Below, piece by piece: positions 25 to 7,560 of a stretch of 7,560 bases of DNA. This stretch comes from a virus (taxonomy: Duplodnaviria > Heunggongvirae > Uroviricota > Caudoviricetes): the IMG/VR virus record IMGVR_UViG_2541047943_000002, positions 1-7,560 of that record. One strand, 5' to 3'. The stretch's first letter is position 1. Each line of letters starts with the position of its first letter. The notes beneath the pieces are model-generated. The model searched no databases. It saw only the letters and a list, made by a program, of their open reading frames with translations, and had not been told where the DNA came from. Position numbers and translations under genes: made by a program.

Positions 25-1011
25 ATGCCGGTATTCCACAATACCCGGGTACTGGTGGAGCCGGAACCGAAAAGCATGCGTAATCTGCCGTCCGGAGTCG
101 TTCCTGCCGTTCGACAGCCGCTGGCAGAGGATAAAATATTACTGCCATTTTTCAGCAACGAACGGGTGATTCGTGCTGCGGGTGGCGCTGGTGCACTGTC
201 TGACTGGTTATTACGTCACGTGAAATCCTGCCAGTGGCCACACGGTGATTATCATCACAGCGAAACCGTCATTCACCGTTACAGTACCGGCGCGATGGTG
301 TTGTGCTGGCACTGTGACAACCAGCTGCGCGACCAGACATCAGAATCACTCGATCAACTTGCTCAGCAGAATCTGGTTGCCTGGATGATTGACGTCATCC
401 GTCACGCAATAAGCGGTACGCAGGAGAGGGAGTTATCGCTGGCCGAATTATCCTGGTGGGCGGCCTGCAATCAGGTGGTGGATGCACTACCTGAGGCAGT
501 AGCGCGTCGTTCGCTGGGATTACCGGTGGAAAAAATCCGCTCCGTATACCGTGAGAGTGACATCGTACCGGGAGAACAGACAGCCATCAGCATACTGAAG
601 CAGCGCACAAAAAATATTGCGCTGCCACTTCACGTCCACCAGCAACAGCCCCCACCCCAGGAAAAGACGTTAGTAAGCATCGCCGTTGATCCGGAGTCTC
701 CGGCTCAGTACCTCCAGCGCCAGAAACCACAACGGGAAGAGATGCCTGTATACACGCGCTGGGTAAAAACGCAGAAATGCATGACGTGTGGCAATCAGGC
801 AGATGATCCGCATCACATCATTGGTCATGGACTGGGAGGGATGGGAACAAAGGCTGACGATTTGTTTGTTATTCCGCTGTGTCGTAAATGCCATAACGAA
901 CTACACGCCGGGGTAAAAGATTTTGAAGAAAAACACGGTAGTCAGTTGTTGTTGCTGATTCGTTTTTTAATGCACGCGAGAAATTCGGGTGTTCTGAAGT
1001 GGAAAGCATAA
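25..1011 (+). CDS. DUF968-family prophage protein (YdfU-like) with C-terminal Cys/His HNH-like zinc motif; probably 5'-truncated by the window edge
   Basis: 328-aa ORF; the frame is open upstream of the first ATG back to position 1 and there is no Shine-Dalgarno before 25, so the real start is probably upstream of the window. C-terminus carries CMTCGN...DPHHIIGHG...CRKCHNELH (CxxC...HH...CxxC-H...H). Immediately followed by rusA (TAA-ATG junction at 1009-1014). Family assignment is from memory. Confidence 0.7.
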   Translation: MPVFHNTRVLVEPEPKSMRNLPSGVVPAVRQPLAEDKILLPFFSNERVIRAAGGAGALSDWLLRHVKSCQWPHGDYHHSETVIHRYSTGAMVLCWHCDNQLRDQTSESLDQLAQQNLVAWMIDVIRHAISGTQERELSLAELSWWAACNQVVDALPEAVARRSLGLPVEKIRSVYRESDIVPGEQTAISILKQRTKNIALPLHVHQQQPPPQEKTLVSIAVDPESPAQYLQRQKPQREEMPVYTRWVKTQKCMTCGNQADDPHHIIGHGLGGMGTKADDLFVIPLCRKCHNELHAGVKDFEEKHGSQLLLLIRFLMHARNSGVLKWKA

Positions 1012-1392
1012 ATGACCGAACGCATAGAATTTGTTTTGCCTTACCCGCCGACGGTGAACACTTACTGGCGACGCCGTGGCAGCACATATTTTGTATCAAA
1101 AGCCGGGGAGCGTTATCGCCGGGCAGTGGCGCTTATTGTTCGCCAGCAGCGCTTGAAATTAAGCCTGTCCGGACGGTTGGCAATAAAAATTATTGCAGAA
1201 CCACCGGATAAGCGCCGCCGTGACCTGGACAATATTCTGAAAGCACCGCTGGATGCGCTGACGCATGCGGGGTTGCTAATGGACGATGAGCAGTTTGATG
1301 AAATCAATATCGTTCGTGTTCAGCCAGTATCTGGTGGACGTCTGGGGGTGAAGATTTACCCCATAATGCTTGAAGGGCAGGTCAAAAAATGA
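1012..1392 (+). CDS. rusA: Crossover-junction endodeoxyribonuclease RusA (Holliday junction resolvase)
   Basis: 126-aa translation has the RusA hallmarks: N-terminal LPYPPTVNTYWRRRG and the catalytic-region motif DKRRRDLDNILKAPLDALTHAGL. GGAAAG Shine-Dalgarno 6 nt upstream of the ATG; stop overlaps the next start (ATGA at 1389-1392). Confidence 0.88.
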   Translation: MTERIEFVLPYPPTVNTYWRRRGSTYFVSKAGERYRRAVALIVRQQRLKLSLSGRLAIKIIAEPPDKRRRDLDNILKAPLDALTHAGLLMDDEQFDEINIVRVQPVSGGRLGVKIYPIMLEGQVKK

Positions 1393-2210
1393 AACTGGAA
1401 GATTTACCGAAATACTACTCCCCAAAATCCCCCGGCCTGACTGATGCATCGGCCTCAACGTCGAAAGATGCGCTGAGTATCACTGATGTGATGGCCGCGC
1501 AGGGCATGACACAGAATCGGGCTGAGATGGGGTTTTCTGCGTTCCTTGGGAAAATGGGCATTAGTATGAATGACAGAGAGCGGGCAACAGAATTGCTGAC
1601 AGAATATGCACTCAGTCGGTGTGATCGCATGGCGGCGTTAAGAAAACTCCCGGCAGAAATAAAACCGGCAGTGATGCGTATTATGGCTTCGTATGCGTTT
1701 GAAGATTATGCCCGTAGCGCGGCGAGCAAAAAACAGTGCCCCTGCTGTCACGGAAAAAAATTTATTGAAAGCGAGGTTTTTACAAACAAGATCCAGTATC
1801 CGGATGGTAAGCCGCCAGTGTGGGCAAAGTGCACAAAAGGCGTGTATCCGTCTTACTGGGAGGAATGGAAAAAAGTCAGGGAGGTGGTCAAAGTTGCCTG
1901 TCCGGACTGTGGAGGGAAGGGAGAGGTATCCACTGCCTGTAAAGATTGTCGTGGGCGCGGTGTTGCCATTCATCGTGAAGAGTCTGAAAAACAGGGTGTG
2001 CCGGTTTTCAGAAACTGTCAGCGTTGTGGTGGGCGTGGCTATGAAAGATTACCTTCAACGGAGGCATTTAATGCCATATGTAATGTAACCGATGCCATAT
2101 CTCTTGATACATGGAAAAAAACAGTTAAACGTTTTTACGATACGCTGGTGGTGCAGTTTGATATTGAAGAAGCATGGGCAGAACAACAACTGAAAAAGGT
2201 GACCAGATAG
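1389..2210 (+). CDS. Q-like late-gene antitermination protein with four CxxCxGxG (DnaJ-type) zinc-finger repeats
   Basis: 273-aa ORF translationally coupled to rusA. Position (after rusA, immediately before a promoter plus intrinsic terminator) matches Q of lambdoid phages. Repeats CPCCHGKK, CPDCGGKG, CKDCRGRG, CQRCGGRG are visible in the translation. Q-family membership is inferred from context and recollection, not from a search. Confidence 0.6.
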   Translation: MKLEDLPKYYSPKSPGLTDASASTSKDALSITDVMAAQGMTQNRAEMGFSAFLGKMGISMNDRERATELLTEYALSRCDRMAALRKLPAEIKPAVMRIMASYAFEDYARSAASKKQCPCCHGKKFIESEVFTNKIQYPDGKPPVWAKCTKGVYPSYWEEWKKVREVVKVACPDCGGKGEVSTACKDCRGRGVAIHREESEKQGVPVFRNCQRCGGRGYERLPSTEAFNAICNVTDAISLDTWKKTVKRFYDTLVVQFDIEEAWAEQQLKKVTR

Positions 2211-2212
2211 CT

Positions 2213-2243
2213 TTGTTGATTTTTCCCGAATCTGTGGTAAATT
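2213..2243 (+). promoter_or_regulatory. pR'-like late promoter (-35 TTGATT 2216-2221, 16-bp spacer, extended -10 TGgTAAATT 2235-2243)
   Basis: Sigma70-like hexamers with correct spacing and a TG at -15/-14, lying directly after the Q-like gene and about 50 nt before an intrinsic terminator. This is the geometry expected for a Q-modified late promoter and its tR'. Confidence 0.5.
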
Positions 2244-2292
2244 TGCCCTAACGATGGGCGTTTTATGCCTGACGTTAGAAGATTTTTTACAC

Positions 2293-2315
2293 CCCGCCGC
2301 CTGGCGGGTTTTTTA
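2293..2315 (+). terminator. tR'-like intrinsic terminator (CCCGCC-gcct-GGCGGG + TTTTTTA)
   Basis: Perfect 6-bp GC stem with a 4-nt loop followed by a 6-T run. A 17-codon mini-ORF (2265-2318) with tandem AGA-AGA codons runs through it. Confidence 0.75.
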
Positions 2316-2436
2316 TGACTGAAATCGCGTCAGTACAGTAAACGCGCTGGTGGTTGCGAATACGGGTCTTTCAGCTTGCTGGCTTTTTCGACAAGAGTTA
2401 TTGGTATGTCACGTTAACCGGAAAAGGGAAAAAGAC

Positions 2437-2634
2437 ATGCTAAAACAGCAGGATATGACAGAAACCGCCAGAGTGGTGTTTAATGAATTAAGCGTTACCG
2501 ACCCGGCGACAGTCGGGGAGATTGCGCAGAATACTTACCTTTCACGTGAACGCTGCCAGTTAATACTGACCCAGCTTGTTATGGCGGGGCTGGCAGACTA
2601 TCAGTTCGGTTGTTACAGACGCCTTCAGTCCTGA
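2437..2634 (+). CDS. Small (65 aa) putative winged-helix DNA-binding protein
   Basis: ATG at 2437 is preceded by AAGGGA 8-9 nt upstream. The motif TVGEIAQNTYLSRERCQLILTQLVMAGL looks like an HTH recognition helix. The stop codon lies inside a strong intrinsic terminator. The longer track ORF from 2350 has no ribosome-binding site and is rejected. Confidence 0.5.
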   Translation: MLKQQDMTETARVVFNELSVTDPATVGEIAQNTYLSRERCQLILTQLVMAGLADYQFGCYRRLQS

Positions 2635-2648
2635 AGGCTTTTTTATTT
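2621..2648 (+). terminator. Intrinsic terminator (GCCTTCA-gtcc-TGAAGGC + TTTTTTATTT)
   Basis: 7-bp stem, 4-nt loop and T-run directly after the small ORF. Confidence 0.75.
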
Positions 2649-2658
2649 GTGGTAAATG
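2648..2658 (+). promoter_or_regulatory. Second copy of the TGTGGTAAAT extended -10-like element, upstream of the methyltransferase gene
   Basis: The 10-mer TGTGGTAAAT at 2648-2657 is identical to the pR'-like -10 region at 2233-2242. No good -35 is present, but extended -10 promoters can work without one. Confidence 0.3.
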
Positions 2659-2784
2659 GGCGGCTGGTGGGTGTTAGGGGCACTCACCAGCCATCTGCTC
2701 ATGCGTCCGGATCACAAGCAAACCTCAGGCCCACTGCTTTGCGCAAAAGCAGAATGAGCCTATCAGAGACAGGCTTAATGATCC

Positions 2785-3843
2785 ATGCTTAGTACTGTAA
2801 AAATATCCAGTTGTGAGTTAATCAACGCCGACTGCCTGGAATTTATCCGGTCGTTACCCGAAAATTCTGTTGACCTGATAGTCACGGACCCGCCGTACTT
2901 TAAAGTGAAGCCTGAGGGCTGGGATAACCAGTGGAAGGGCGACGATGATTACCTGAAGTGGCTGGACCAGTGTCTGGCGCAGTTCTGGCGGGTGCTGAAA
3001 CCTGCCGGAAGTCTTTACCTGTTCTGTGGCCATCGCCTGGCGTCTGATATCGAAATCATGATGCGTGAACGCTTCAGTGTGCTGAACCATATTATCTGGG
3101 CGAAGCCGTCCGGACGCTGGAACGGATGCAACAAGGAAAGCCTGCGGGCGTATTTCCCCGCCACAGAGCGCATTCTGTTCGCGGAACATTATCAGGGGCC
3201 GTATCGTCCGAAAGATGCCGGGTATGCGGCGAAGGGCAGTGCACTGAAACAGCATGTGATGGCCCCGCTGATTTCTTACTTTCGTGATGCGCGTGCTGCC
3301 CTGGGGATAACGGCAAAACAGATTGCTGATGCCACAGGAAAGAAAAACATGGTGTCGCACTGGTTCAGTGCCAGCCAGTGGCAGCTACCGGACGAAAGCG
3401 ATTATCTGAAATTACAGGCGCTGTTTGCCCGGGTGGCAGAAGATAAGCATCAGCGCGGAGAACTGGAAAAGCCACATCACCAACTGGTCAGCACATACAG
3501 TGAACTGAACCGGCAGTATACGGAACTGCAGAGTGAATATAAGCATCTGCGGCGGTATTTTGGTGTGACGGTGCAGGTGCCGTACACCGATGTGTGGACG
3601 CATAAACCGGTGCAGTACTATCCCGGGAAACATCCGTGCGAAAAACCGGCAGAAATGCTGCAGCAGATAATCAGCGCTAGCAGTCGTCCGGGTGACCTGA
3701 TTGCAGATTTTTTCATGGGGTCGGGTTCGACAGTGAAAGCGGCACTGGCGCTCGGGCGTCGTGCAACTGGCGTTGAGCTGGAGACTGAACGTTTTGAGCA
3801 GACGGTTCGGGAAGTACAGGATTTAGTCAGCCAGAACGGATGA
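2785..3843 (+). CDS. Beta-class DNA amino-methyltransferase (N6-adenine or N4-cytosine); apparently orphan
   Basis: 352-aa ORF with catalytic motif IV DPPY (VTDPPYF) near the N-terminus and the AdoMet-binding motif I FxGxG (DFFMGSGST) near the C-terminus, which is the beta-class order. No restriction endonuclease partner is in the window. Confidence 0.85.
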   Translation: MLSTVKISSCELINADCLEFIRSLPENSVDLIVTDPPYFKVKPEGWDNQWKGDDDYLKWLDQCLAQFWRVLKPAGSLYLFCGHRLASDIEIMMRERFSVLNHIIWAKPSGRWNGCNKESLRAYFPATERILFAEHYQGPYRPKDAGYAAKGSALKQHVMAPLISYFRDARAALGITAKQIADATGKKNMVSHWFSASQWQLPDESDYLKLQALFARVAEDKHQRGELEKPHHQLVSTYSELNRQYTELQSEYKHLRRYFGVTVQVPYTDVWTHKPVQYYPGKHPCEKPAEMLQQIISASSRPGDLIADFFMGSGSTVKAALALGRRATGVELETERFEQTVREVQDLVSQNG

Positions 3844-3883
3844 TATTGAAGAATTAATTACGCGTCGTTATTATGCGGCTCCC

Positions 3884-3959
3884 GGCCCTTTAGCTCAGTG
3901 GTGAGAGCGAGCGACTCATAATCGCCAGGTCGCTGGTTCAAATCCAGCAAGGGCCACCA
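3884..3959 (+). tRNA. ileZ: tRNA-Ile2 (anticodon CAU, ileX/ileZ-like; Met cannot be excluded from sequence alone)
   Basis: 76-nt cloverleaf: acceptor GGCCCTT/AAGGGCC, D-arm GCTC-AGTGGTGA-GAGC, anticodon loop CTCATAA, T-arm GCTGG-TTCAAAT-CCAGC, encoded CCA. Very close to E. coli ileX as I remember it. Gene symbol follows Stx-phage convention. Confidence 0.85.
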
Positions 3960-3968
3960 TATCACATA

Positions 3969-4045
3969 CCGCCATTAGCTCATCAGGATAGAGCGCCAGC
4001 TTTCGAAGCTGGTTGCGCGGAGTTCGGGTCCCCGAAGGCGGTCCA
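3969..4045 (+). tRNA. argN: tRNA-Arg (anticodon UCG), non-canonical features
   Basis: 77-nt cloverleaf with D-arm GCTC-ATCAGGATA-GAGC, anticodon stem CCAGC/GCTGG, loop TTTCGAA, T-loop TTCGGGT and encoded CCA. It has C1-G72, an A6/A67 mismatch, an A52/C62 mismatch and U73. Symbol assumed from the ileZ-argN-argO convention. Confidence 0.65.
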
Positions 4046-4058
4046 TTATCTGTATCCT

Positions 4059-4135
4059 GCGTTGTTAGCTCAGCCGGACAGAGCAATTGCCTTCTAAGCA
4101 ATCGGTCACTGGTTCGAATCCAGTACAACGCGCCA
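4059..4135 (+). tRNA. argO: tRNA-Arg (anticodon UCU, argU-like)
   Basis: 77-nt cloverleaf: perfect acceptor stem GCGTTGT/ACAACGC, anticodon loop CTTCTAA, T-arm ACTGG-TTCGAAT-CCAGT, G73, encoded CCA. Confidence 0.88.
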
Positions 4136-4179
4136 CACTTATTTTCCCTGGCTCGCTTTTGCGGGCTTTTTTTAAATGT

Positions 4180-4395
4180 CTCACAATTCAGGCGGTTGAC
4201 TGTTGTCTGGTTTGCGGGGAGTTTGTTAAAAGAAACTGGCATGGTGAATCCCCCTGTGCGGAGGGGCAATCAGCGAGTAGGTATATGGGATAATCGCGGA
4301 TTCAGGTGCTGGTACTGAATTCACCGGGAGGCACCCGGCACCATGCAATGGCACATAGCGCCACTCTCCAGCCCCTCTCCGGAGGGGCTTTTCTG
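4180..4395 (+). repeat. Tandem structured non-coding module, copy A (candidate sRNA / attenuator unit)
   Basis: Shares four conserved blocks with copy B: CTCACAATTCAG, GCATGGTGAATCCCCCTG(t/a)GCGGAGGGGC, CTGAA(t/c)TCACCGGGAGGCACCCGGCACCATG and AGCCCCTCTCCGGAGGGGCTTT. These are separated by non-homologous spacers. Ends in an intrinsic terminator. Confidence 0.6.
4372..4395 (+). terminator. Intrinsic terminator of module A (GCCCCTC-tccg-GAGGGGC + TTTTCT)
   Basis: 7-bp GC-rich stem, tetraloop and T-rich tail. Confidence 0.7.
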
Positions 4396-4583
4396 TGCCG
4401 GATACATCACAGTTTCTGGAACCTTAGGTACTACAGTATCAGTCAGGGTGCTATATTTTCAGATGTGATGAAAGCCTGTCAGCAGGCAGGGCGTATCGGA
4501 AATGACCCAGTAGAGAAAACGTTGACTCAGATACCGGTGCTGAGTTACCGGGAAACCGGCATCACATGACCGCTATCCTTCCA

Positions 4584-4610
4584 GGCCCATCCGCTCCGGT
4601 GGGCCTTTTT
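4584..4610 (+). terminator. Intrinsic terminator in the inter-module spacer (GGCCCATC ... GGTGGGCC + TTTTTA)
   Basis: 8-bp stem (one G-U pair), 6-nt loop and 5-T run. Sits 17 nt after the stop of a 33-codon ORF (4466-4567). Confidence 0.65.
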
Positions 4611-4646
4611 ACTGCAGAAAACAGGTTCCCCGTTAAATGCTATGTT

Positions 4647-4880
4647 GCTCACAATTCAGTAAGTTGACAGTTGCCTGTCAGACTGGGCATTTGTTAAAAA
4701 AATTTCGCATGGTGAATCCCCCTGAGCGGAGGGGCGACTGGTGACGGTATAATCTCTGATTATCAAAACGAGAATGACGCGGGTTTAGTGGCACCGGGCT
4801 GAACTCACCGGGAGGCACCCGGCACCATGTGCATGATGATACAGATACGCGGCTTTAGCCCCTCTCCGGAGGGGCTTTCT
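4647..4880 (+). repeat. Tandem structured non-coding module, copy B (candidate sRNA / attenuator unit)
   Basis: Same four conserved blocks as copy A; contains a perfect TATAAT at 4748-4753 in its variable centre; ends in an identical terminator. Confidence 0.6.
4858..4880 (+). terminator. Intrinsic terminator of module B (GCCCCTC-tccg-GAGGGGC + TTTCTTAT)
   Basis: Identical stem-loop to the module A terminator, followed by a T-rich tail. Confidence 0.7.
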
Positions 4881-5109
4881 TATGGACAAAAAAAGCCCGC
4901 GCTGGGAGACGCGGGCGGCAAGGAATAAACAATAAAACGTGAAGTAATATTTCAGCTGGCGAATAATACCCTATAGTAATCACTCTGCGCAACTGCGCGG
5001 TCTTTTTCGAATTGCGGGCTGTAGTCTCCCTTCTGCCATTGTCCTGTAACTTCCGGACTTCAGCCTGCTCCTTATCTGACTCACAACATTATCCCGCCCG
5101 GGAGGATTC

Positions 5110-6963
5110 ATGGCATTTAAACACTATGACGTGGTCAGGGCGGCATCGCCGTCAGACCTTGCGAAACGACTGACACAAAAACTGAAGGAGGGCTGGCAGC
5201 CGTTTGGTAGTCCGGTGGCCATAACCCCTTATACCCTGATGCAGGCGATTGCAGCAGAAGGTGATGTGGTCGTCAGTGGTGCAACTGAGCCGGAGTGGTA
5301 CTACGTCATCGTACTGGCCGGGCAATCCAATGCCATGGCTTACGGTGAAGGGCTTCCGCTTCCGGATTCATACGATGCGCCCCATCCGCGCATTAAGCAA
5401 CTGGCCCGTCGTAACACAGTGACTCCCGGTGGTGAAGTATGCGTATTTAACGACATCATTCCTGCTGACCATTGTCTGCATGATGTTCAGGATATGAGTA
5501 CGATTAACCATCCCCGGGCTGACCTGAGCAAAGGGCAGTACGGCTGTGTCGGACAGGGCTTACATATTGCCAAAAAACTGCTTCCGTATATCCCTAATAA
5601 TGCGGGGATCCTGCTGGTACCATGCTGTCGTGGTGGTTCGGCATTCACCCAGGGCACGGAGGGGACATTCAGCGAGTCCACGGGAGCCAGTCAGGATTCG
5701 GCTCGCTGGGGAGTGGGTAAGCCGTTATATCAGGATCTGCTTTTCCGCACGAAGGCAGCATTGCAGAAAAACCCGAAAAACGTTTTGCTGGCGATATGCT
5801 GGATGCAGGGGGAATTCGATATGACGAATGCCAGTTACGCCCAGCAGCCAGCAGCATTTCTTGCAATGGTACAGCAGTTCCGTGCTGACCTTGCCGGGCT
5901 GGCAGCGCAGTGTCACGGTGGAAGTCCGGCATCAGTCCCCTGGATTTGTGGCGACACGACATACGCGTGGAAACAAGAACACGGTACGCAATATGAAGTG
6001 GTATATGGTGCATATAAAGGTAAAGAATCCCAGCAGATTTATTTTGTTCCCTTTATGACCGATGGTAGCGGAGTTAATACACCGACAAACAACCCGTCAG
6101 AAGATCCTGATATTGCCGGGTCTGGTTATTACGGTTCGGCATCCCGAACGAACAAAAACTGGGTATCATCAAATCGCCCGACGCATTTCAGCTCATGGGC
6201 GCGTCGTGGCATTATTCCCGATCGTATGGCAACTGCTATTCTGAACGTAGCCGGTCGCACCTTAGCCTTCATTAGTGGTAAGGCACCGGAAATCAAACCC
6301 TCGCCCGGCGGCGACACGCCATCGGGGCCGTCTGAAGATGCATCCATACGCACAATCTCCCTGTTGCCGACAGCCGGAGACGCTGCTGCGCAGGGCTGGA
6401 GCATTAAGAATGGCGGAATTCAGTTGTCAGATGGTGTATTTAAGATCACCAAGCAGAGCAATAAAGCCTGGTCCCTGACGCGCCCGGTGGATGACGCAGT
6501 CTCCCTGCTGACACGGGGTGGCAGACTGAGCTGTAAGTTTCGACTGTCAGGCGCACTGACCAACAACCAGTTCGGTCTGGGAATTTATCTGTATACCGAT
6601 GTAGCGTTACCTGACGTCGTGGCGATGACCGGGACTGGTAACCCGTTCCTGATGTCGTTCTTCACCCAGACCACAGACGGCAAACTGAATCTGATGCATC
6701 ACAAGAAAGCAGGAAACACAAAGTTGGGCGAGTTCGGGAATTACAGTAACGACTGGCAGACGCTGGAGCTGGTGTTCACCGCCGGCAGTGCCACGGTTAC
6801 TCCGAAACTGAATGGAGTGGCTGGCCCGGCATTCCAGGTCATAAAAGACAGTCTGACACTGGGGCTGAATGCGCTGACGCTGACGGATATTACCAAAAAT
6901 GCAGCGTATGGCGTTGAGATAGAAAGTCTGGTGCTGGAGATAAATGCACCGGCATCATCATAA
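5110..6963 (+). CDS. nanS-p: Prophage-encoded sialate O-acetylesterase (NanS-p type: N-terminal DUF1737-like region, SGNH/SASA esterase core, roughly 250-aa C-terminal domain of unknown function)
   Basis: 617-aa ORF with GGAGG Shine-Dalgarno 5 nt upstream. The N-terminus MAFKHYDVV...GWQPFGSP matches the NanS-p/YjhS prophage family as I remember it. A GQSN catalytic block (VLAGQSNAMAYGEG) is present. The position, directly before the holin, is typical of Stx-phage-like prophages. Confidence 0.8.
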   Translation: MAFKHYDVVRAASPSDLAKRLTQKLKEGWQPFGSPVAITPYTLMQAIAAEGDVVVSGATEPEWYYVIVLAGQSNAMAYGEGLPLPDSYDAPHPRIKQLARRNTVTPGGEVCVFNDIIPADHCLHDVQDMSTINHPRADLSKGQYGCVGQGLHIAKKLLPYIPNNAGILLVPCCRGGSAFTQGTEGTFSESTGASQDSARWGVGKPLYQDLLFRTKAALQKNPKNVLLAICWMQGEFDMTNASYAQQPAAFLAMVQQFRADLAGLAAQCHGGSPASVPWICGDTTYAWKQEHGTQYEVVYGAYKGKESQQIYFVPFMTDGSGVNTPTNNPSEDPDIAGSGYYGSASRTNKNWVSSNRPTHFSSWARRGIIPDRMATAILNVAGRTLAFISGKAPEIKPSPGGDTPSGPSEDASIRTISLLPTAGDAAAQGWSIKNGGIQLSDGVFKITKQSNKAWSLTRPVDDAVSLLTRGGRLSCKFRLSGALTNNQFGLGIYLYTDVALPDVVAMTGTGNPFLMSFFTQTTDGKLNLMHHKKAGNTKLGEFGNYSNDWQTLELVFTAGSATVTPKLNGVAGPAFQVIKDSLTLGLNALTLTDITKNAAYGVEIESLVLEINAPASS

Positions 6964-7046
6964 AAAGTGAGCCAGTCAAATGGAAGGTATCGTTAAACTC
7001 ACCGGTAGTGTCAGTGGGTCGTCTGAGATGCCTGCATGAGTTATCA

Positions 7047-7078
7047 GAGCCATCAGTACTTAACTGGTGGCTTTTTTT
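7047..7078 (+). terminator. Intrinsic terminator between esterase and holin genes
   Basis: Stem AGAGCCATCAG / CTGGTGGCT (with a G-U pair), 7-nt loop, then TTTTTTT. Confidence 0.6.
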
Positions 7079-7113
7079 ATTGTTGTCAGCTTCCGGATAA
7101 CGGGAGACGGGGT

Positions 7114-7329
7114 ATGGACCAGATGGAAAAAATCACAACAGGTGTGTCATACACCACGTCAGCGGTGGGAACGGGCTACTGGTTCCTGCAGTTGCTGGAC
7201 AGGGTTTCCCCGTCTCAGTGGGCGGCAATAGGCGTGCTGGGGAGTCTGCTGTTTGGGCTGCTGACATATCTGACTAACCTGTATTTCAAAATCAGAGAGG
7301 ACCGTCGTAAGGCTGCACGGGGAGAGTAA
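7114..7329 (+). CDS. S: S21-type pinholin (class II holin) with dual-start motif M-D-Q-M
   Basis: 71-aa product [71 protein letters not shown] closely resembles the phage 21 S pinholin as I remember it (two transmembrane segments, charged C-terminus). GGAG is 8 nt upstream. The 97-aa track ORF from 7036 starts before the terminator and is rejected. Confidence 0.85.
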
Positions 7330-7333
7330 TTCA

Positions 7334-7560
7334 ATGACTCAAAACTATAAACTGATTGTGAAAGGGATCCGCAATTTTGAGAATAAAGTTACGGTAACTT
7401 TAGCGTTACGGGACAAAAAACGCTTTGACGGTGAAATTTTTGACCTGGACATCTCGCTGGACCGTGTTGAAGGTGCCGCGCTGGAGTTTTATGAGGCAGC
7501 AGCCAGAAGGAGCATCAGACAGGTCTTCCTGGATGTTGCTGCCGGGTTATGTGAAGGGGA
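7334..7560 (+). CDS. 5' part of a late-region gene of unknown function (YdfR/DUF1327-like), truncated by the window end
   Basis: ATG at 7334 with GGAGAG 6 nt upstream. The frame stays open for 75 codons to the window end (MTQNYKLIVKGIRNFENKVTVTLALRDKKRFDGEIFDLD...). Position between holin and the expected endolysin matches ydfR-like genes. Contains AGA, AGG and AGA codons within a few residues. Family recalled, not verified. Confidence 0.55.
   Translation, partial: MTQNYKLIVKGIRNFENKVTVTLALRDKKRFDGEIFDLDISLDRVEGAALEFYEAAARRSIRQVFLDVAAGLCEG

What the first reader, a model, noticed from the sequence alone, without database searches (positions are those of the whole stretch)
4136..5109. Stx-phage-like late-region architecture without stxAB
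The gene order Q-like, methyltransferase, ileZ/argN/argO-like tRNAs, [cargo], NanS-p-type esterase, pinholin is the layout in which Shiga-toxin phages carry stxA-stxB between the tRNAs and the esterase. Here that ~975-bp slot has only short, non-conserved ORFs and three terminator-capped non-coding units. This prophage therefore looks like a stx-negative relative or derivative, with the cargo slot holding RNA elements that would be expressed by Q-dependent late transcription.
Basis: partly seen in the sequence, partly recalled or inferred. Interest (0 to 1): 0.6.

Follow-up and report, generated by a model that had tools for sequence, protein, structure and literature searches.

The report
Toxin-free prophage slot holding small RNAs
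This lambda-like E. coli prophage has the same late-gene layout as Shiga-toxin phages but no toxin genes. The gap between its tRNAs and its esterase gene is filled by four small-RNA genes of kinds already described in such prophages, so the arrangement is real but largely ordinary.

Summary
The window reads DUF968, RusA, Q, DNA methylase, tRNA-Ile2(CAT)/Arg(TCG)/Arg(TCT), a 974-bp slot, a NanS-p-type esterase and a P21-type holin. It is collinear (92.9% identity) with an Stx2a phage that carries stx2AB right after the tRNAs. No stx remnant is detectable.

The slot is not an empty cargo bay refilled with RNA. It holds four RNA genes:
- two strong Rfam STnc100 copies (136 and 165 bits);
- a diverged third paralogue between them (30 bits, below the Rfam cut-off, but all helices are kept through compensatory changes);
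- a convergent minus-strand sRNA, 92.9% identical to an Hfq-bound EPEC sRNA (EcOnc08/21/42 type).

The same STnc100 unit lies just 3' of stx2B in Stx2 phages. So stx is an extra insert between the argO terminator and a resident sRNA array.

Each plus-strand unit has its own promoter-like site and terminator, and relatives are abundant in uninduced lysogens. Q-dependent expression is therefore at most a secondary route.

The whole slot occurs in 353 of 5426 complete E. coli genomes. The site's sRNA content was described by Tree et al. 2014 and Zhu et al. 2026.

Two modest new points emerged: the conserved three-unit tandem array, and a covarying pseudoknot in the shared 5' domain.

The parts
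1389..2210 (+). Antiterminator Q gene (273 aa), same allele type as in Stx2a phage Stx2_EH1910
   Evidence: Pfam PF03589, 175 bits. Collinear with quuQ of L001.
2216..2316 (+). Predicted late promoter PR' (TTGATT 2216-2221, 16-nt spacer, TGgTAAATT with -10 at 2238-2243, then AACGAT pause-like element) and terminator tR' (stem 2293-2308 plus T-run). This would give a short (~65-nt) constitutive transcript.
   Evidence: Read from the sequence. The terminator is listed. The PR' part is identical in the Stx2a phage L001, which differs at three positions in and next to the tR' hairpin. Resemblance to lambda PR' is from my own knowledge. The PR'/tR' principle is from PMC7547250.
2785..3843 (+). DNA methyltransferase
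   Evidence: Pfam PF01555, 148 bits.
3846..3874 (+). Promoter-like site just upstream of the tRNA cluster (TTGAAG-17-TATTAT)
   Evidence: A tRNA promoter between tR' and stx2AB was mapped in Sakai (PMC7547250).
3884..4135 (+). Three tRNA genes: CAT (Ile2 type, ileZ-like) 3884-3959, Arg-TCG 3969-4045, Arg-TCT 4059-4135
   Evidence: ARAGORN, Rfam tRNA. RefSeq calls the first one tRNA-Ile in relatives.
4150..4177 (+). Intrinsic terminator after argO. Position 4177/4178 is the point where the stx2 cassette is inserted in the Stx2a relative.
   Evidence: Homology to L001 ends at 4177 and resumes at TCACAATTCAG.
4180..4238 (+). Upstream block of unit 1: conserved CTCACAATTCAG..GTTGAC, then -35 TTGTCT 4203-4208, 17-nt spacer, -10 TTAAAA 4226-4231
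   Evidence: Direct repeat with 4648-4735. Promoter geometry is conserved in 86 of 94 distinct units with 25 different spacers. Coordinates.
4239..4394 (+). STnc100-family sRNA, unit 1 (short form; a long form could start near 4181). P1 4239-4246/4339-4346, P2 4251-4255/4262-4266, P3 4301-4305/4315-4319, P4 4324-4328/4334-4338, pseudoknot 4269-4274 x 4308-4313, terminator 4370-4389.
   Evidence: Rfam RF02076, 136.3 bits, E 8e-31. Pair counts, coordinates.
4449..4457 (+). Extended -10 promoter-like element (TGcTATATT) of the middle unit
   Evidence: Invariant between the two alleles that are 84.5% identical overall. Coordinates.
4463..4612 (+). Diverged STnc100-like sRNA (middle unit). P1 4463-4470/4560-4567, P2 4475-4480/4485-4490, P3 4526-4530/4540-4544, P4 4548-4551/4556-4559, pseudoknot 4494-4499 x 4534-4539, terminator 4583-4606.
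   Evidence: Rfam RF02076, 30.1 bits, E 4e-5 on the 255-nt stretch, below the gathering score of 47. All helices are kept by compensatory changes. Present in 673 of 5426 E. coli genomes.
4648..4706 (+). Upstream block of unit 3: CTCACAATTCAG..GTTGAC, -35 TTGCCT 4671-4676, 17-nt spacer, -10 TTAAAA 4694-4699
4707..4881 (+). STnc100-family sRNA, unit 3 (short form; a long form could start near 4650). It is the closest homologue (87%) of the unit that follows stx2B in the Stx2a phage. Pseudoknot 4738-4743 x 4792-4797, terminator 4857-4876.
   Evidence: Rfam RF02076, 165.4 bits, E 3e-38. BLAST to L001 5993-6231. Coordinates.
4888..5080 (-). Convergent minus-strand sRNA of the EcOnc08/21/42 type. 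Promoter-like ATGCCA-17-GATAAT lies at 5116-5088, overlapping the nanS-p start codon. Terminator 4916-4895 plus U-run 4894-4888.
   Evidence: 92.9% identity over all 182 nt of the EPEC RIL-seq sRNA E2348C_1409.E2348C_1408.IGR, E 7e-76 (Table S6 of PMC8550237). Promoter and terminator.
5110..6963 (+). NanS-p-type sialate O-acetylesterase (617 aa)
   Evidence: Pfam DUF1737 + SASA + DUF6645. Annotated SASA family esterase / yjhS in relatives.
7114..7329 (+). Class II (P21 S-type) holin
   Evidence: Pfam PF04971, 112.5 bits.

Best explanation
The window is the late-regulatory region of an stx-negative lambdoid E. coli prophage that shares its backbone with Stx2a phages. The 974-bp slot between argO and nanS-p is a compact array of four independently transcribed small-RNA genes. 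Three are tandem plus-strand members of the STnc100/EcOnc27/PasD superfamily (4239-4394, 4463-4612, 4707-4881). The fourth is a convergent minus-strand sRNA of the EcOnc08/21/42 type (about 5080-4888).

Shown:
- family membership of units 1 and 3;
- homology of the minus-strand RNA;
- collinearity with an Stx2a phage;
- absence of stx;
- the exact position at which the stx2 cassette is inserted in that relative.

Inferred:
- In the lysogen, each plus-strand unit is transcribed from its own sigma-70 promoter (TTGNNN-17-TTAAAA, or TGcTATATT for the middle unit) and ends at its own intrinsic terminator.
- The RNA starts directly with a closed, pseudoknotted 5' domain that leaves no free 5' end. 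That domain probably stabilises the RNA or binds a partner.
- The variable 3' tail plus terminator U-run carries the Hfq site and seed for base pairing with host or prophage mRNAs, as shown for PasD and EcOnc27.
- After induction, Q-loaded polymerase starting at PR' (about 2250) reads through tR', the tRNA terminator and all the sRNA terminators to reach nanS-p and the lysis genes. The array then also serves as a stack of Q-suppressible terminators that keeps lysis genes silent in the lysogen.
For: - Rfam STnc100 hits of 136 and 165 bits against a gathering score of 47, plus a third hit with E 4e-5.
- On a 25-sequence structural alignment, all five helices are kept in 99.4% of cells. 20 of 28 pairs change on both sides, against 3-7 when partners are slid.
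- The middle unit carries compensatory versions of P1, P2, P3, P4 and the pseudoknot.
- The promoter geometry TTGNNN-(17)-TTAAAA-(6-8)-GCATGG occurs in 86 of 94 distinct units, with 25 different spacers, in two unrelated upstream contexts.
- The RNA-seq 5' end of PasD2 is the G of GCATGG.
- Relatives are expressed without induction. All 11 STnc100 copies of EDL933 have RNA-seq reads and one has a Northern blot. EcOnc27 and EcOnc08/21/42 are Hfq-bound with Northern sizes. PasD1/2 are among the most abundant EPEC sRNAs.
- The minus-strand RNA is 92.9% identical to the EPEC sRNA.
- Tree et al. describe convergent sRNA pairs 3' of the moron site in Sp3, 4, 5, 9, 10, 11, 15 and 17.
- An STnc100 unit lies directly after stx2B in L001 and 75 nt after stx2 in other STEC.
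- The slot is conserved: at least 80% coverage in 353 of 5426 genomes. The middle unit is flanked by STnc100 cores on both sides at 85 of 104 viral-contig sites.
Against: - No expression data exist for this window itself; promoters and 5' ends are predictions.
- Northern sizes of EcOnc27 (about 235/247 nt) are longer than the 175-190 nt expected from a start at GCATGG. They fit a start near the TCACAATTCAG block, so a second upstream start, or processing from a longer transcript, is likely. The role of that conserved block is unexplained.
- The middle unit scores below the Rfam gathering threshold, and only two alleles of it were found, so its covariation rests mainly on comparison with its paralogues.
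- The function of the 5' domain is inferred, not shown.
- No target is known for units 1 and 3 or for the middle unit.
Confidence: 0.8

Rival explanations
1. The slot is what is left after an Stx phage lost stxAB. The RNA-like units would then be decaying remnants or filler rather than functional genes.
For: The backbone is shared with an Stx2a phage at 92.9% identity. With word size 2, tblastn gives one weak StxA hit in the slot on the minus strand: 26.9 bits, 35.8% identity over 53 columns.
Against: - That hit contains a stop codon and 7 gap positions, lies on the wrong strand inside STnc100 unit 3, and vanishes with default settings. One of 200 shuffled slots reached the same score, although the shuffles were searched at default word size.
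- The units are intact Rfam-scoring genes, and the homologous unit sits next to intact stx2 in Stx phages.
- The homology break is clean, at the argO terminator and at the unit start.
- The same slot is 99.9% identical in a prophage with a different Q allele, and occurs in 353 genomes.
Confidence: 0.05
2. The units are not independent genes. They would be cis elements of the Q-dependent late transcript: terminator stacks and processing sites, whose RNA products appear only as by-products of late transcription.
For: They lie downstream of PR' and upstream of the lysis genes. Three plus-strand terminators in 750 bp would insulate the lysis genes from the constitutive tRNA promoter. The EcOnc27 Northern sizes suggest a 5' end upstream of the predicted promoter, which could arise by processing.
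Against: Promoter geometry is conserved with variable spacers. Relatives are abundant in uninduced cultures and bound by Hfq. The 5' domains are conserved and covary far beyond what a terminator needs. The fourth gene is on the opposite strand and cannot be made from PR'.
Confidence: 0.1
3. The conservation of the middle unit reflects a small protein (for example the 33-codon ORF 4468-4569, or the longer 4306-4569 frame) rather than an RNA.
For: Frame 0 stays open to the same stop codon in both alleles. Phage PhiR5_2 annotates a hypothetical CDS there.
Against: - The 28 differences between the alleles fall 9/10/9 on codon positions 1/2/3, so there is no third-position excess.
- Within the 33-codon ORF, seven of the eight nucleotide differences lie in or next to hairpin P2 (4475-4491), whose stem stays paired in both alleles; the eighth (4537) is in the pseudoknot. 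They change five residues.
- No Shine-Dalgarno sequence is visible before 4468.
- Rfam aligns the unit to STnc100 helix by helix.
Confidence: 0.05

Closest known systems
STnc100 (Rfam RF02076) / EcOnc27 (= sRNA103), the Hfq-bound sRNA immediately 3' of stx2B in Stx2 phages
   Same: Units 1 and 3 score 136 and 165 bits over the full model. Unit 3 is 87% identical to the copy that follows stx2B in Stx2_EH1910. They share the position relative to nanS-p and the convergent partner.
   Different: Here there is no stx upstream and the gene is present three times in tandem. The pseudoknot seen here is not in the Rfam consensus structure line.
PasD1/PasD2 (EPEC E2348/69; EcOnc13 in EHEC)
   Same: Same 5' start GCAUGGUGAAUCC, same closing helix, P3 and linker x loop pairing. 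Same -10 position. It also lies directly upstream of a sialate esterase gene.
   Different: BLAST similarity is limited to the first ~40 nt. The PasD 3' tail with the UGUGAG seed is absent from all three units of the window. PasD copies are reported as dispersed, not tandem.
EcOnc08/21/42 (EHEC Sakai Sp4, and 3' of stx1AB) = E2348C_1409.E2348C_1408.IGR sRNA (EPEC PP6)
   Same: The minus-strand RNA at 5069-4888 is 92.9% identical over all 182 nt. It has the same terminator and the same CUUGCC stretch before it. It has the same convergent position between STnc100 and the esterase gene. EcOnc42 lies 3' of stx1AB, one of the two sRNAs that bookend it.
   Different: Nothing of note. Expression in this host was not tested.
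AsxR / AgvB anti-sRNAs (Rfam RF02703, RF02702)
   Same: They occupy the same convergent position opposite STnc100-type RNAs in other prophages. This is visible in the viral contigs as ...GCCCGAGTGGGTTCGGGC... downstream of many units.
   Different: Not homologous to the window's minus-strand RNA. There is no Rfam hit even at E<=10 on the slot alone, and the terminator and body differ.
Late region of Stx2a-converting phages (Stx2_EH1910; Sp5/933W type)
   Same: Same RusA, Q, PR'/tR', small ORF, methylase, three tRNAs, STnc100, nanS-p and holin, in the same order.
   Different: No stx2AB cassette (1.33 kb) and no iraM. There are two extra STnc100-family units.
Lambda 6S RNA / StxS (the short PR'-tR' transcript)
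   Same: A PR'-like promoter with an AACGAT pause-like element is followed by a strong terminator right after Q. The principle is described in PMC7547250.
   Different: The predicted RNA is only ~65 nt, against 258 nt processed to 74 nt for StxS. No sequence relation to StxS was tested.

Membership tests
STnc100 (RF02076): units 1 and 3 | Covariance-model score at or above the Rfam gathering score (47 bits), full-length match | tested here: met
   136.3 and 165.4 bits, model positions 1-206 of 206.
STnc100 (RF02076): middle unit 4439-4612 | Covariance-model score at or above the Rfam gathering score (47 bits) | tested here: not met
   30.1 bits. E is 0.0013 on the whole window and 4e-5 on the 255-nt stretch. 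It is a significant relative, but not a member by Rfam's own threshold.
STnc100/PasD superfamily: middle unit | Conserved helices P1-P4, linker x P3-loop pairing and an intrinsic terminator | tested here: met
   All helices form with compensatory changes: P1 AUGUGAUG/CAUCACAU against GCAUGGUG/CACCAUGC, P3 CUCAG/CUGAG, pseudoknot UAUCGG x CCGGUG. The alignment was fitted to the structure, so the counts lean towards it.
STnc100/EcOnc27 | Hfq binding and expression as a discrete sRNA | not testable with these tools
   Known only for relatives.
EcOnc08/21/42-type sRNA | Sequence homology over the whole RNA, and a convergent position upstream of the esterase gene | tested here: met
   92.9% over 182 nt, E 7e-76. 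Same context in E2348/69 PP6.
AsxR/AgvB anti-sRNA | Conserved ~42-nt 3' region or an Rfam RF02702/RF02703 match | tested here: not met
   No hit at E<=10 on the slot. The terminator sequence differs from the GCCCGAACCCACUCGGGC of AsxR.
PasD | 3' tail with the UGUGAG seed and the GGCUGCGCAU(G/U)GCGC(G/A)GCC terminator | tested here: not met
   BLAST with PasD2 matches only nt 1-39. The tails of the three units differ.
Stx-converting phage | stxA and stxB genes between the tRNAs and nanS-p | tested here: not met
   tblastn with Stx2A/Stx2B gives nothing credible. Stx1 proteins were not used as queries.
Stx-phage-type late region | Order Q, PR'/tR', (methylase), ileZ-argN-argO-type tRNAs, moron site, nanS-p, holin | tested here: met
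   Collinearity with L001.
NanS-p esterase | DUF1737 + SASA esterase domain + C-terminal DUF6645 | tested here: met
   Pfam, all three above their cut-offs. Catalytic residues and activity were not tested.
P21-type (pin)holin | Membership of the Phage_holin_2_1 family. A SAR-endolysin partner would be needed to call it a pinholin. | tested here: inconclusive
   PF04971, 112.5 bits. The endolysin lies outside the window. Relatives carry rrrQ lysozyme downstream, but its SAR domain was not examined.

The most novel reading that the evidence does not exclude
STnc100, PasD and the unnamed middle unit may form one superfamily built from two modules.

The first module is a conserved 5' domain of about 100-130 nt. 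It is closed by a helix that starts at the first transcribed base and is locked by a pseudoknot between the linker after P2 and the loop of P3.

The second module is a freely exchanged 3' tail that carries the seed and terminator.

The pseudoknot is kept through at least seven different sequence pairs. It is absent from the Rfam consensus line, and the word 'pseudoknot' does not occur in the 2026 Pas paper.

If real, the 5' domain has a function of its own, such as nuclease protection or binding of a host or phage factor. Prophages would then carry conserved tandem arrays (unit, diverged unit, unit) of such RNAs next to the moron site.
Probability: 0.5. Interest if true: 0.45.

Novelty: new member of a known kind. 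Interest (0 to 1): 0.3.

Why it matters
For the finding as stated, it matters little. Stx-less lambdoid prophages with this layout are common, and the sRNA content of the moron site is published.

It does correct a tempting misreading: the RNAs are not a substitute cargo. They are the standing neighbours of the site where stx, iraM and other morons are dropped. This is useful when annotating STEC, EPEC and ExPEC prophages and when reasoning about how stx cassettes move.

The side results give concrete, testable handles on a family of abundant, Hfq-bound, virulence-linked sRNAs whose function is still unknown. These results are:
- a third, unannotated paralogue present in about 12% of complete E. 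coli genomes;
- a conserved three-gene array;
- a covarying pseudoknot in the shared 5' domain.

Tried and rejected
1. stx remnants. tblastn with Stx2A/B found one weak minus-strand hit, and only at word size 2. It has a stop codon and gaps and lies inside STnc100 unit 3. I rejected it as chance.

2. PasA/PasC between nanS-p and the holin. BLAST with PasA found nothing.

3. The minus-strand RNA as AsxR, AgvB or Esr41. There are no Rfam hits at E<=10. The weak OmrA-B hit (22 bits against a gathering score of 40) was dismissed.

4. The middle unit as PasD. BLAST gives no match to the middle unit (4463-4612).

5. A scan of genome contigs with the 15-nt core GCATGGTGAATCCNCC, meant to show the taxonomic spread. 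The host range beyond Escherichia was therefore not established here.

6. A plain MAFFT alignment of the 5' domains put the linkers out of register. I replaced it with an N-padded, structure-guided alignment, which biases the pair counts towards the structure.

7. The contiguous-complementarity test for the pseudoknot is weak for single classes because G-U pairs are allowed: P ranges from below 0.0005 (0 of 2000 shuffles) to 0.9. Only the combined result is convincing: Fisher P 1e-7 for 10 classes and 6e-6 for 8.

8. The TTGACA/TTGACT hexamer at 4196 and 4664 as a -35. No usable -10 lies at 16-18 nt, so I rejected it in favour of TTGTCT/TTGCCT-17-TTAAAA.

9. The minimum-free-energy fold of the middle unit alone is not exceptional (z -1.6), and neither is that of the minus-strand RNA (z -1.5). 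Thermodynamic stability is therefore not evidence here.
Full report
**Observation.** The window is a lambdoid late-regulatory region. Pfam assigns the ORFs as follows:
- 25-1011: DUF968
- 1012-1392: RusA
- 1389-2210: antitermination protein Q
- 2785-3843: N6/N4 DNA methylase
- 5110-6963: DUF1737 + SASA esterase + DUF6645, the NanS-p architecture
- 7114-7329: phage P21 holin S family

ARAGORN and Rfam find three tRNAs at 3884-3959 (anticodon CAT), 3969-4045 (TCG) and 4059-4135 (TCT). RefSeq annotates the first as tRNA-Ile in near-identical prophages. That matches the ileZ/argN/argO set known from Stx phages (my own knowledge). The 974-bp slot at 4136-5109 holds only short ORFs. The scan of 2100-7560 found 17 terminator-like sites, against 5.4 +/- 2.4 in shuffles.

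**Comparison with Stx phages.**
- Among 50,697 phage records, the best-covered match is Stx2a-converting phage Stx2_EH1910. Its annotation reads ydfU, rusA, quuQ, a small ORF, DNA methylase, three tRNAs, stx2A, stx2B, iraM (minus strand), yjhS (nanS-p) and a holin.
- Window 751-4177 aligns to it at 92.9%. The alignment stops just after the T-run of the argO terminator. It resumes, after the 1.33-kb stx2 cassette, at TCACAATTCAG, which is the first conserved bases of an STnc100 unit.
- Rfam places an STnc100 gene at 6022-6237 of that locus, directly after stx2B. This agrees with a report that STnc100 lies 75 nt downstream of the stx2 operon (PMC12370729). It also agrees with EcOnc27 in Sakai Sp5 (PMC4104026; PMC12711010).
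- tblastn with the Stx2A and Stx2B proteins of that phage finds nothing credible in the window. Default settings give no StxA hit at E<=1, and StxB gives E=0.61.
- One 26.9-bit hit appears only at word size 2. It is on the minus strand, contains a stop codon and 7 gap positions, and lies inside STnc100 unit 3.

The window is therefore an stx-negative relative. Nothing shows that it ever carried stx.

**What the slot contains.**
- Rfam finds two full-length STnc100 copies at 4210-4400 (136 bits) and 4678-4887 (165 bits). A third, weak match to the same model lies at 4439-4612 (30.1 bits; E 0.0013 on the window, 4e-5 on the 255-nt stretch; gathering score 47).
- The two strong copies sit in a direct repeat with a 468-nt period. 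The repeat begins about 60 nt upstream of the conserved GCATGGTG.
- On the minus strand, 5069-4888 is 92.9% identical over all 182 nt to the EPEC E2348/69 RIL-seq sRNA E2348C_1409.E2348C_1408.IGR. Its authors equate that RNA with EcOnc08/21/42 of EHEC (Table S6). It has a strong terminator (4916-4895 plus seven U). A promoter-like site, ATGCCA-17-GATAAT at 5116-5088, overlaps the nanS-p start codon.
- This is the 'convergent sRNA pair 3' of the moron site' that Tree et al. described for Sp3, 4, 5, 9, 10, 11, 15 and 17. In many other loci the convergent partner is instead of the AsxR/AgvB type. That type is absent here.

**The middle unit.**
- It aligns helix by helix with STnc100, with these compensatory versions:
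  - closing helix AUGUGAUG/CAUCACAU, against GCAUGGUG/CACCAUGC
  - P2 CCUGUC/GGCAGG
  - P3 CUCAG/CUGAG, against UUCAG/CUGAA
  - P4 CCGG/CCGG
  - a different terminator
- It has an extended -10 element, TGcTATATT (4449-4457), placed 5 nt before the closing helix.
- It occurs in 673 of 5426 complete E. coli genomes, as two alleles (99% or more, and 84.5%).
- The alleles keep the promoter element and most of the RNA. They differ in P2 by changes that keep the stem paired (one pair changed on both sides, two on one side) and in the terminator by an indel that preserves a stem.
- An open frame persists in both alleles, but the 28 differences fall 9/10/9 on codon positions. I read it as an RNA gene.
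- In viral contigs it is flanked by STnc100 cores on both sides at 85 of 104 sites. The order unit, middle, unit is also found in a lineage only 71-76% identical overall.
- It is a significant relative of STnc100, but not a member by Rfam's threshold. I found no name for it in the papers read.

**Promoters and expression.**
- In 86 of 94 distinct STnc100/PasD units collected from viral contigs and reference loci, the sequence upstream of GCATGG reads TTGNNN, 16-18 nt (17 in 82), TTAAAA, 6-8 nt. There are 25 different spacers and two unrelated upstream contexts.
- In the window these elements are TTGTCT 4203-4208 with TTAAAA 4226-4231, and TTGCCT 4671-4676 with TTAAAA 4694-4699.
- The RNA-seq 5' end of PasD2 is the G of GCATGG.
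- Relatives are expressed without prophage induction. All 11 STnc100 copies of EDL933 have RNA-seq reads, and one was confirmed by Northern blot. EcOnc27, EcOnc13 and EcOnc08/21/42 are Hfq-crosslinked with Northern sizes. PasD1/2 are highly abundant in EPEC. RpoD binding at STnc100 promoters is reported in Salmonella.
- One discrepancy remains. EcOnc27 runs at about 235/247 nt. That fits a 5' end near the TCACAATTCAG block rather than at GCATGG. A second upstream start, or processing, is therefore likely, and the function of that block is open.

**Q-dependent transcription.**
- Directly after Q lies a lambda-PR'-like promoter: TTGATT, 16 nt, TGgTAAATT, then TAACGATGGG. A strong terminator follows at 2293-2308.
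- The PR' part is identical in the Stx2a phage, which differs at three positions in and next to the terminator hairpin.
- By analogy with lambda and Stx phages, PR' is constitutive and terminated at tR' in lysogens, and Q allows read-through (PMC7547250).
- Q-modified polymerase would then cross tR', the terminator of the small ORF, the argO terminator and the three sRNA terminators before reaching nanS-p and the holin.
- The sRNA sequences are thus part of the late transcript after induction. Their discrete forms are better explained by their own promoters and terminators, and the minus-strand RNA cannot come from PR'.

**Structure of the family.**
- The 36 representative sequences show a conserved 5' domain followed by interchangeable 3' tails and terminators. 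The same 5' domain occurs with unit-1-type, unit-3-type or PasD-type tails.
- Within the 5' domain, the stretch after P2 is complementary to the loop of P3 in nearly every sequence, through different sequence pairs:
  - AUCAGC x GCUGAU/GCUGGU
  - CUGGUG x CACCGG/CACCAG
  - AAUGAUC x GAUCAUU (PasD)
  - UAAUGAC x GUCAUUG
  - CUGGCU x AGCCAG
  - UAUCAGUAC x GUACUGAUA
  - UAUCGG x CCGGUG (middle unit)
- Because P3 itself covaries (UUCAG/CUGAA, UUCGG/CCGAA, UUCUG/CAGAA, CUCAG/CUGAG), this pairing is a pseudoknot.
- Loop-shuffle tests are individually weak, but they combine to Fisher P about 1e-7.
- On an N-padded structural alignment, 99.4% of cells pair and 20 of 28 pairs change on both sides. With slid partners the figures are 32-44% and 3-7 pairs.
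- Caveat: the pseudoknot register was chosen per sequence, so these counts lean towards the structure.
- Two members (L011_9188 and L022; a third, L078, clusters with L022) appear to form the same helix as a nested hairpin instead, and were left out.
- The Rfam consensus line has no pseudoknot, and the 2026 Pas preprint does not mention one.

**Distribution and novelty.**
- The whole slot is present at 80% coverage or more in 353 of 5426 complete E. coli genomes. The best match is 99.9%, in a prophage with a different Q allele. Some part of the slot is present in 2870 genomes.
- The full window matches at best at 96.4%, as expected for a mosaic prophage.
- In EPEC E2348/69 PP6, the single STnc100 unit at this position is split by ISEc13.
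- The layout, the sRNAs at the moron site and their link to Stx phages are published. The finding is therefore ordinary in kind.
- What I could not find described are three things: the conserved three-gene tandem array (the Pas paper states that PasA and PasD copies are dispersed), the middle paralogue, and the pseudoknot.

Noticed in passing
window 2216-2316: A lambda-PR'-like late promoter (TTGATT-16-TGgTAAATT, then TAACGATGGG) is followed by a strong terminator. Together they predict a ~65-nt constitutive RNA analogous to lambda 6S RNA or StxS. The PR' part is identical in Stx2a phage Stx2_EH1910, which differs at three positions in and next to the terminator hairpin.
   Followed up: partly
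window 1389-2210 (Q protein, residues ~171-218): The Q antiterminator carries repeated CxxCxGxG motifs. They give a sub-threshold Pfam match to the DnaJ central zinc-finger domain (29.7 bits against a cut-off of 32.7).
   Followed up: no
window 4180-4191, 4648-4659, 5081-5088; also 4407-4416: A CTCACAA(TTCAG) motif recurs on the plus strand at the start of unit 1, at the start of unit 3 and just before nanS-p. A degenerate ATCACAGTTT sits before the middle unit. CUCACA is the motif reported in PasD targets. Its complement, UGUGAG, is the PasD seed and also lies near the 5' end of the minus-strand RNA (about 5086-5081). It could be a module-boundary sequence, or a site of RNA-RNA pairing.
   Followed up: no
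L004 (E. coli E2348/69 PP6, NC_011601:1441500-1448500) 1578-3288: In EPEC E2348/69, the STnc100 unit at this position is interrupted by ISEc13, inserted within the P2 hairpin. The 3' part after the IS is 100% identical to window 4254-4391.
   Followed up: partly
L126 (E. coli AR_0013) 2400-3089, against window 1389-2210: The same slot (99.9% identical) is combined with a different, shorter Q allele (229 aa). The sRNA array therefore travels independently of the antiterminator type.
   Followed up: no
window 2437-2634: A 65-aa ORF with no Pfam match and its own terminator (2621-2638) lies between tR' and the methylase. A 198-bp hypothetical ORF is annotated at the same position in all relatives looked at, including the Stx2a phage.
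   Followed up: no
window 6964-7113: The nanS-p to holin spacer has a strong plus-strand terminator hairpin (7046-7074). It has no homologue of PasA/PasC, which occupy this spacer on the minus strand in EPEC.
   Followed up: partly
L011 (minus strand, about 9188) and L022 (with L078 clustering with L022): In a divergent subfamily of STnc100-like RNAs, the linker x loop helix (UGAUACC x GGUAUCA) appears to be an ordinary nested hairpin. P3 is replaced by a small hairpin further downstream. This may show how the pseudoknot arose.
   Followed up: no
L101 and L117 (viral contigs): These are chimeric RNAs with an STnc100-type 5' domain joined to a PasD-like 3' tail and the PasD-type terminator, though without the UGUGAG seed. 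They are direct evidence for exchange of 3' tails between family members.
   Followed up: no
L001 6245-6568 and L006 3993-4328: In some relatives, iraM (an anti-adaptor that stabilises RpoS) sits on the minus strand between the STnc100 array and nanS-p. It takes the place of the convergent sRNA of this window.
   Followed up: no
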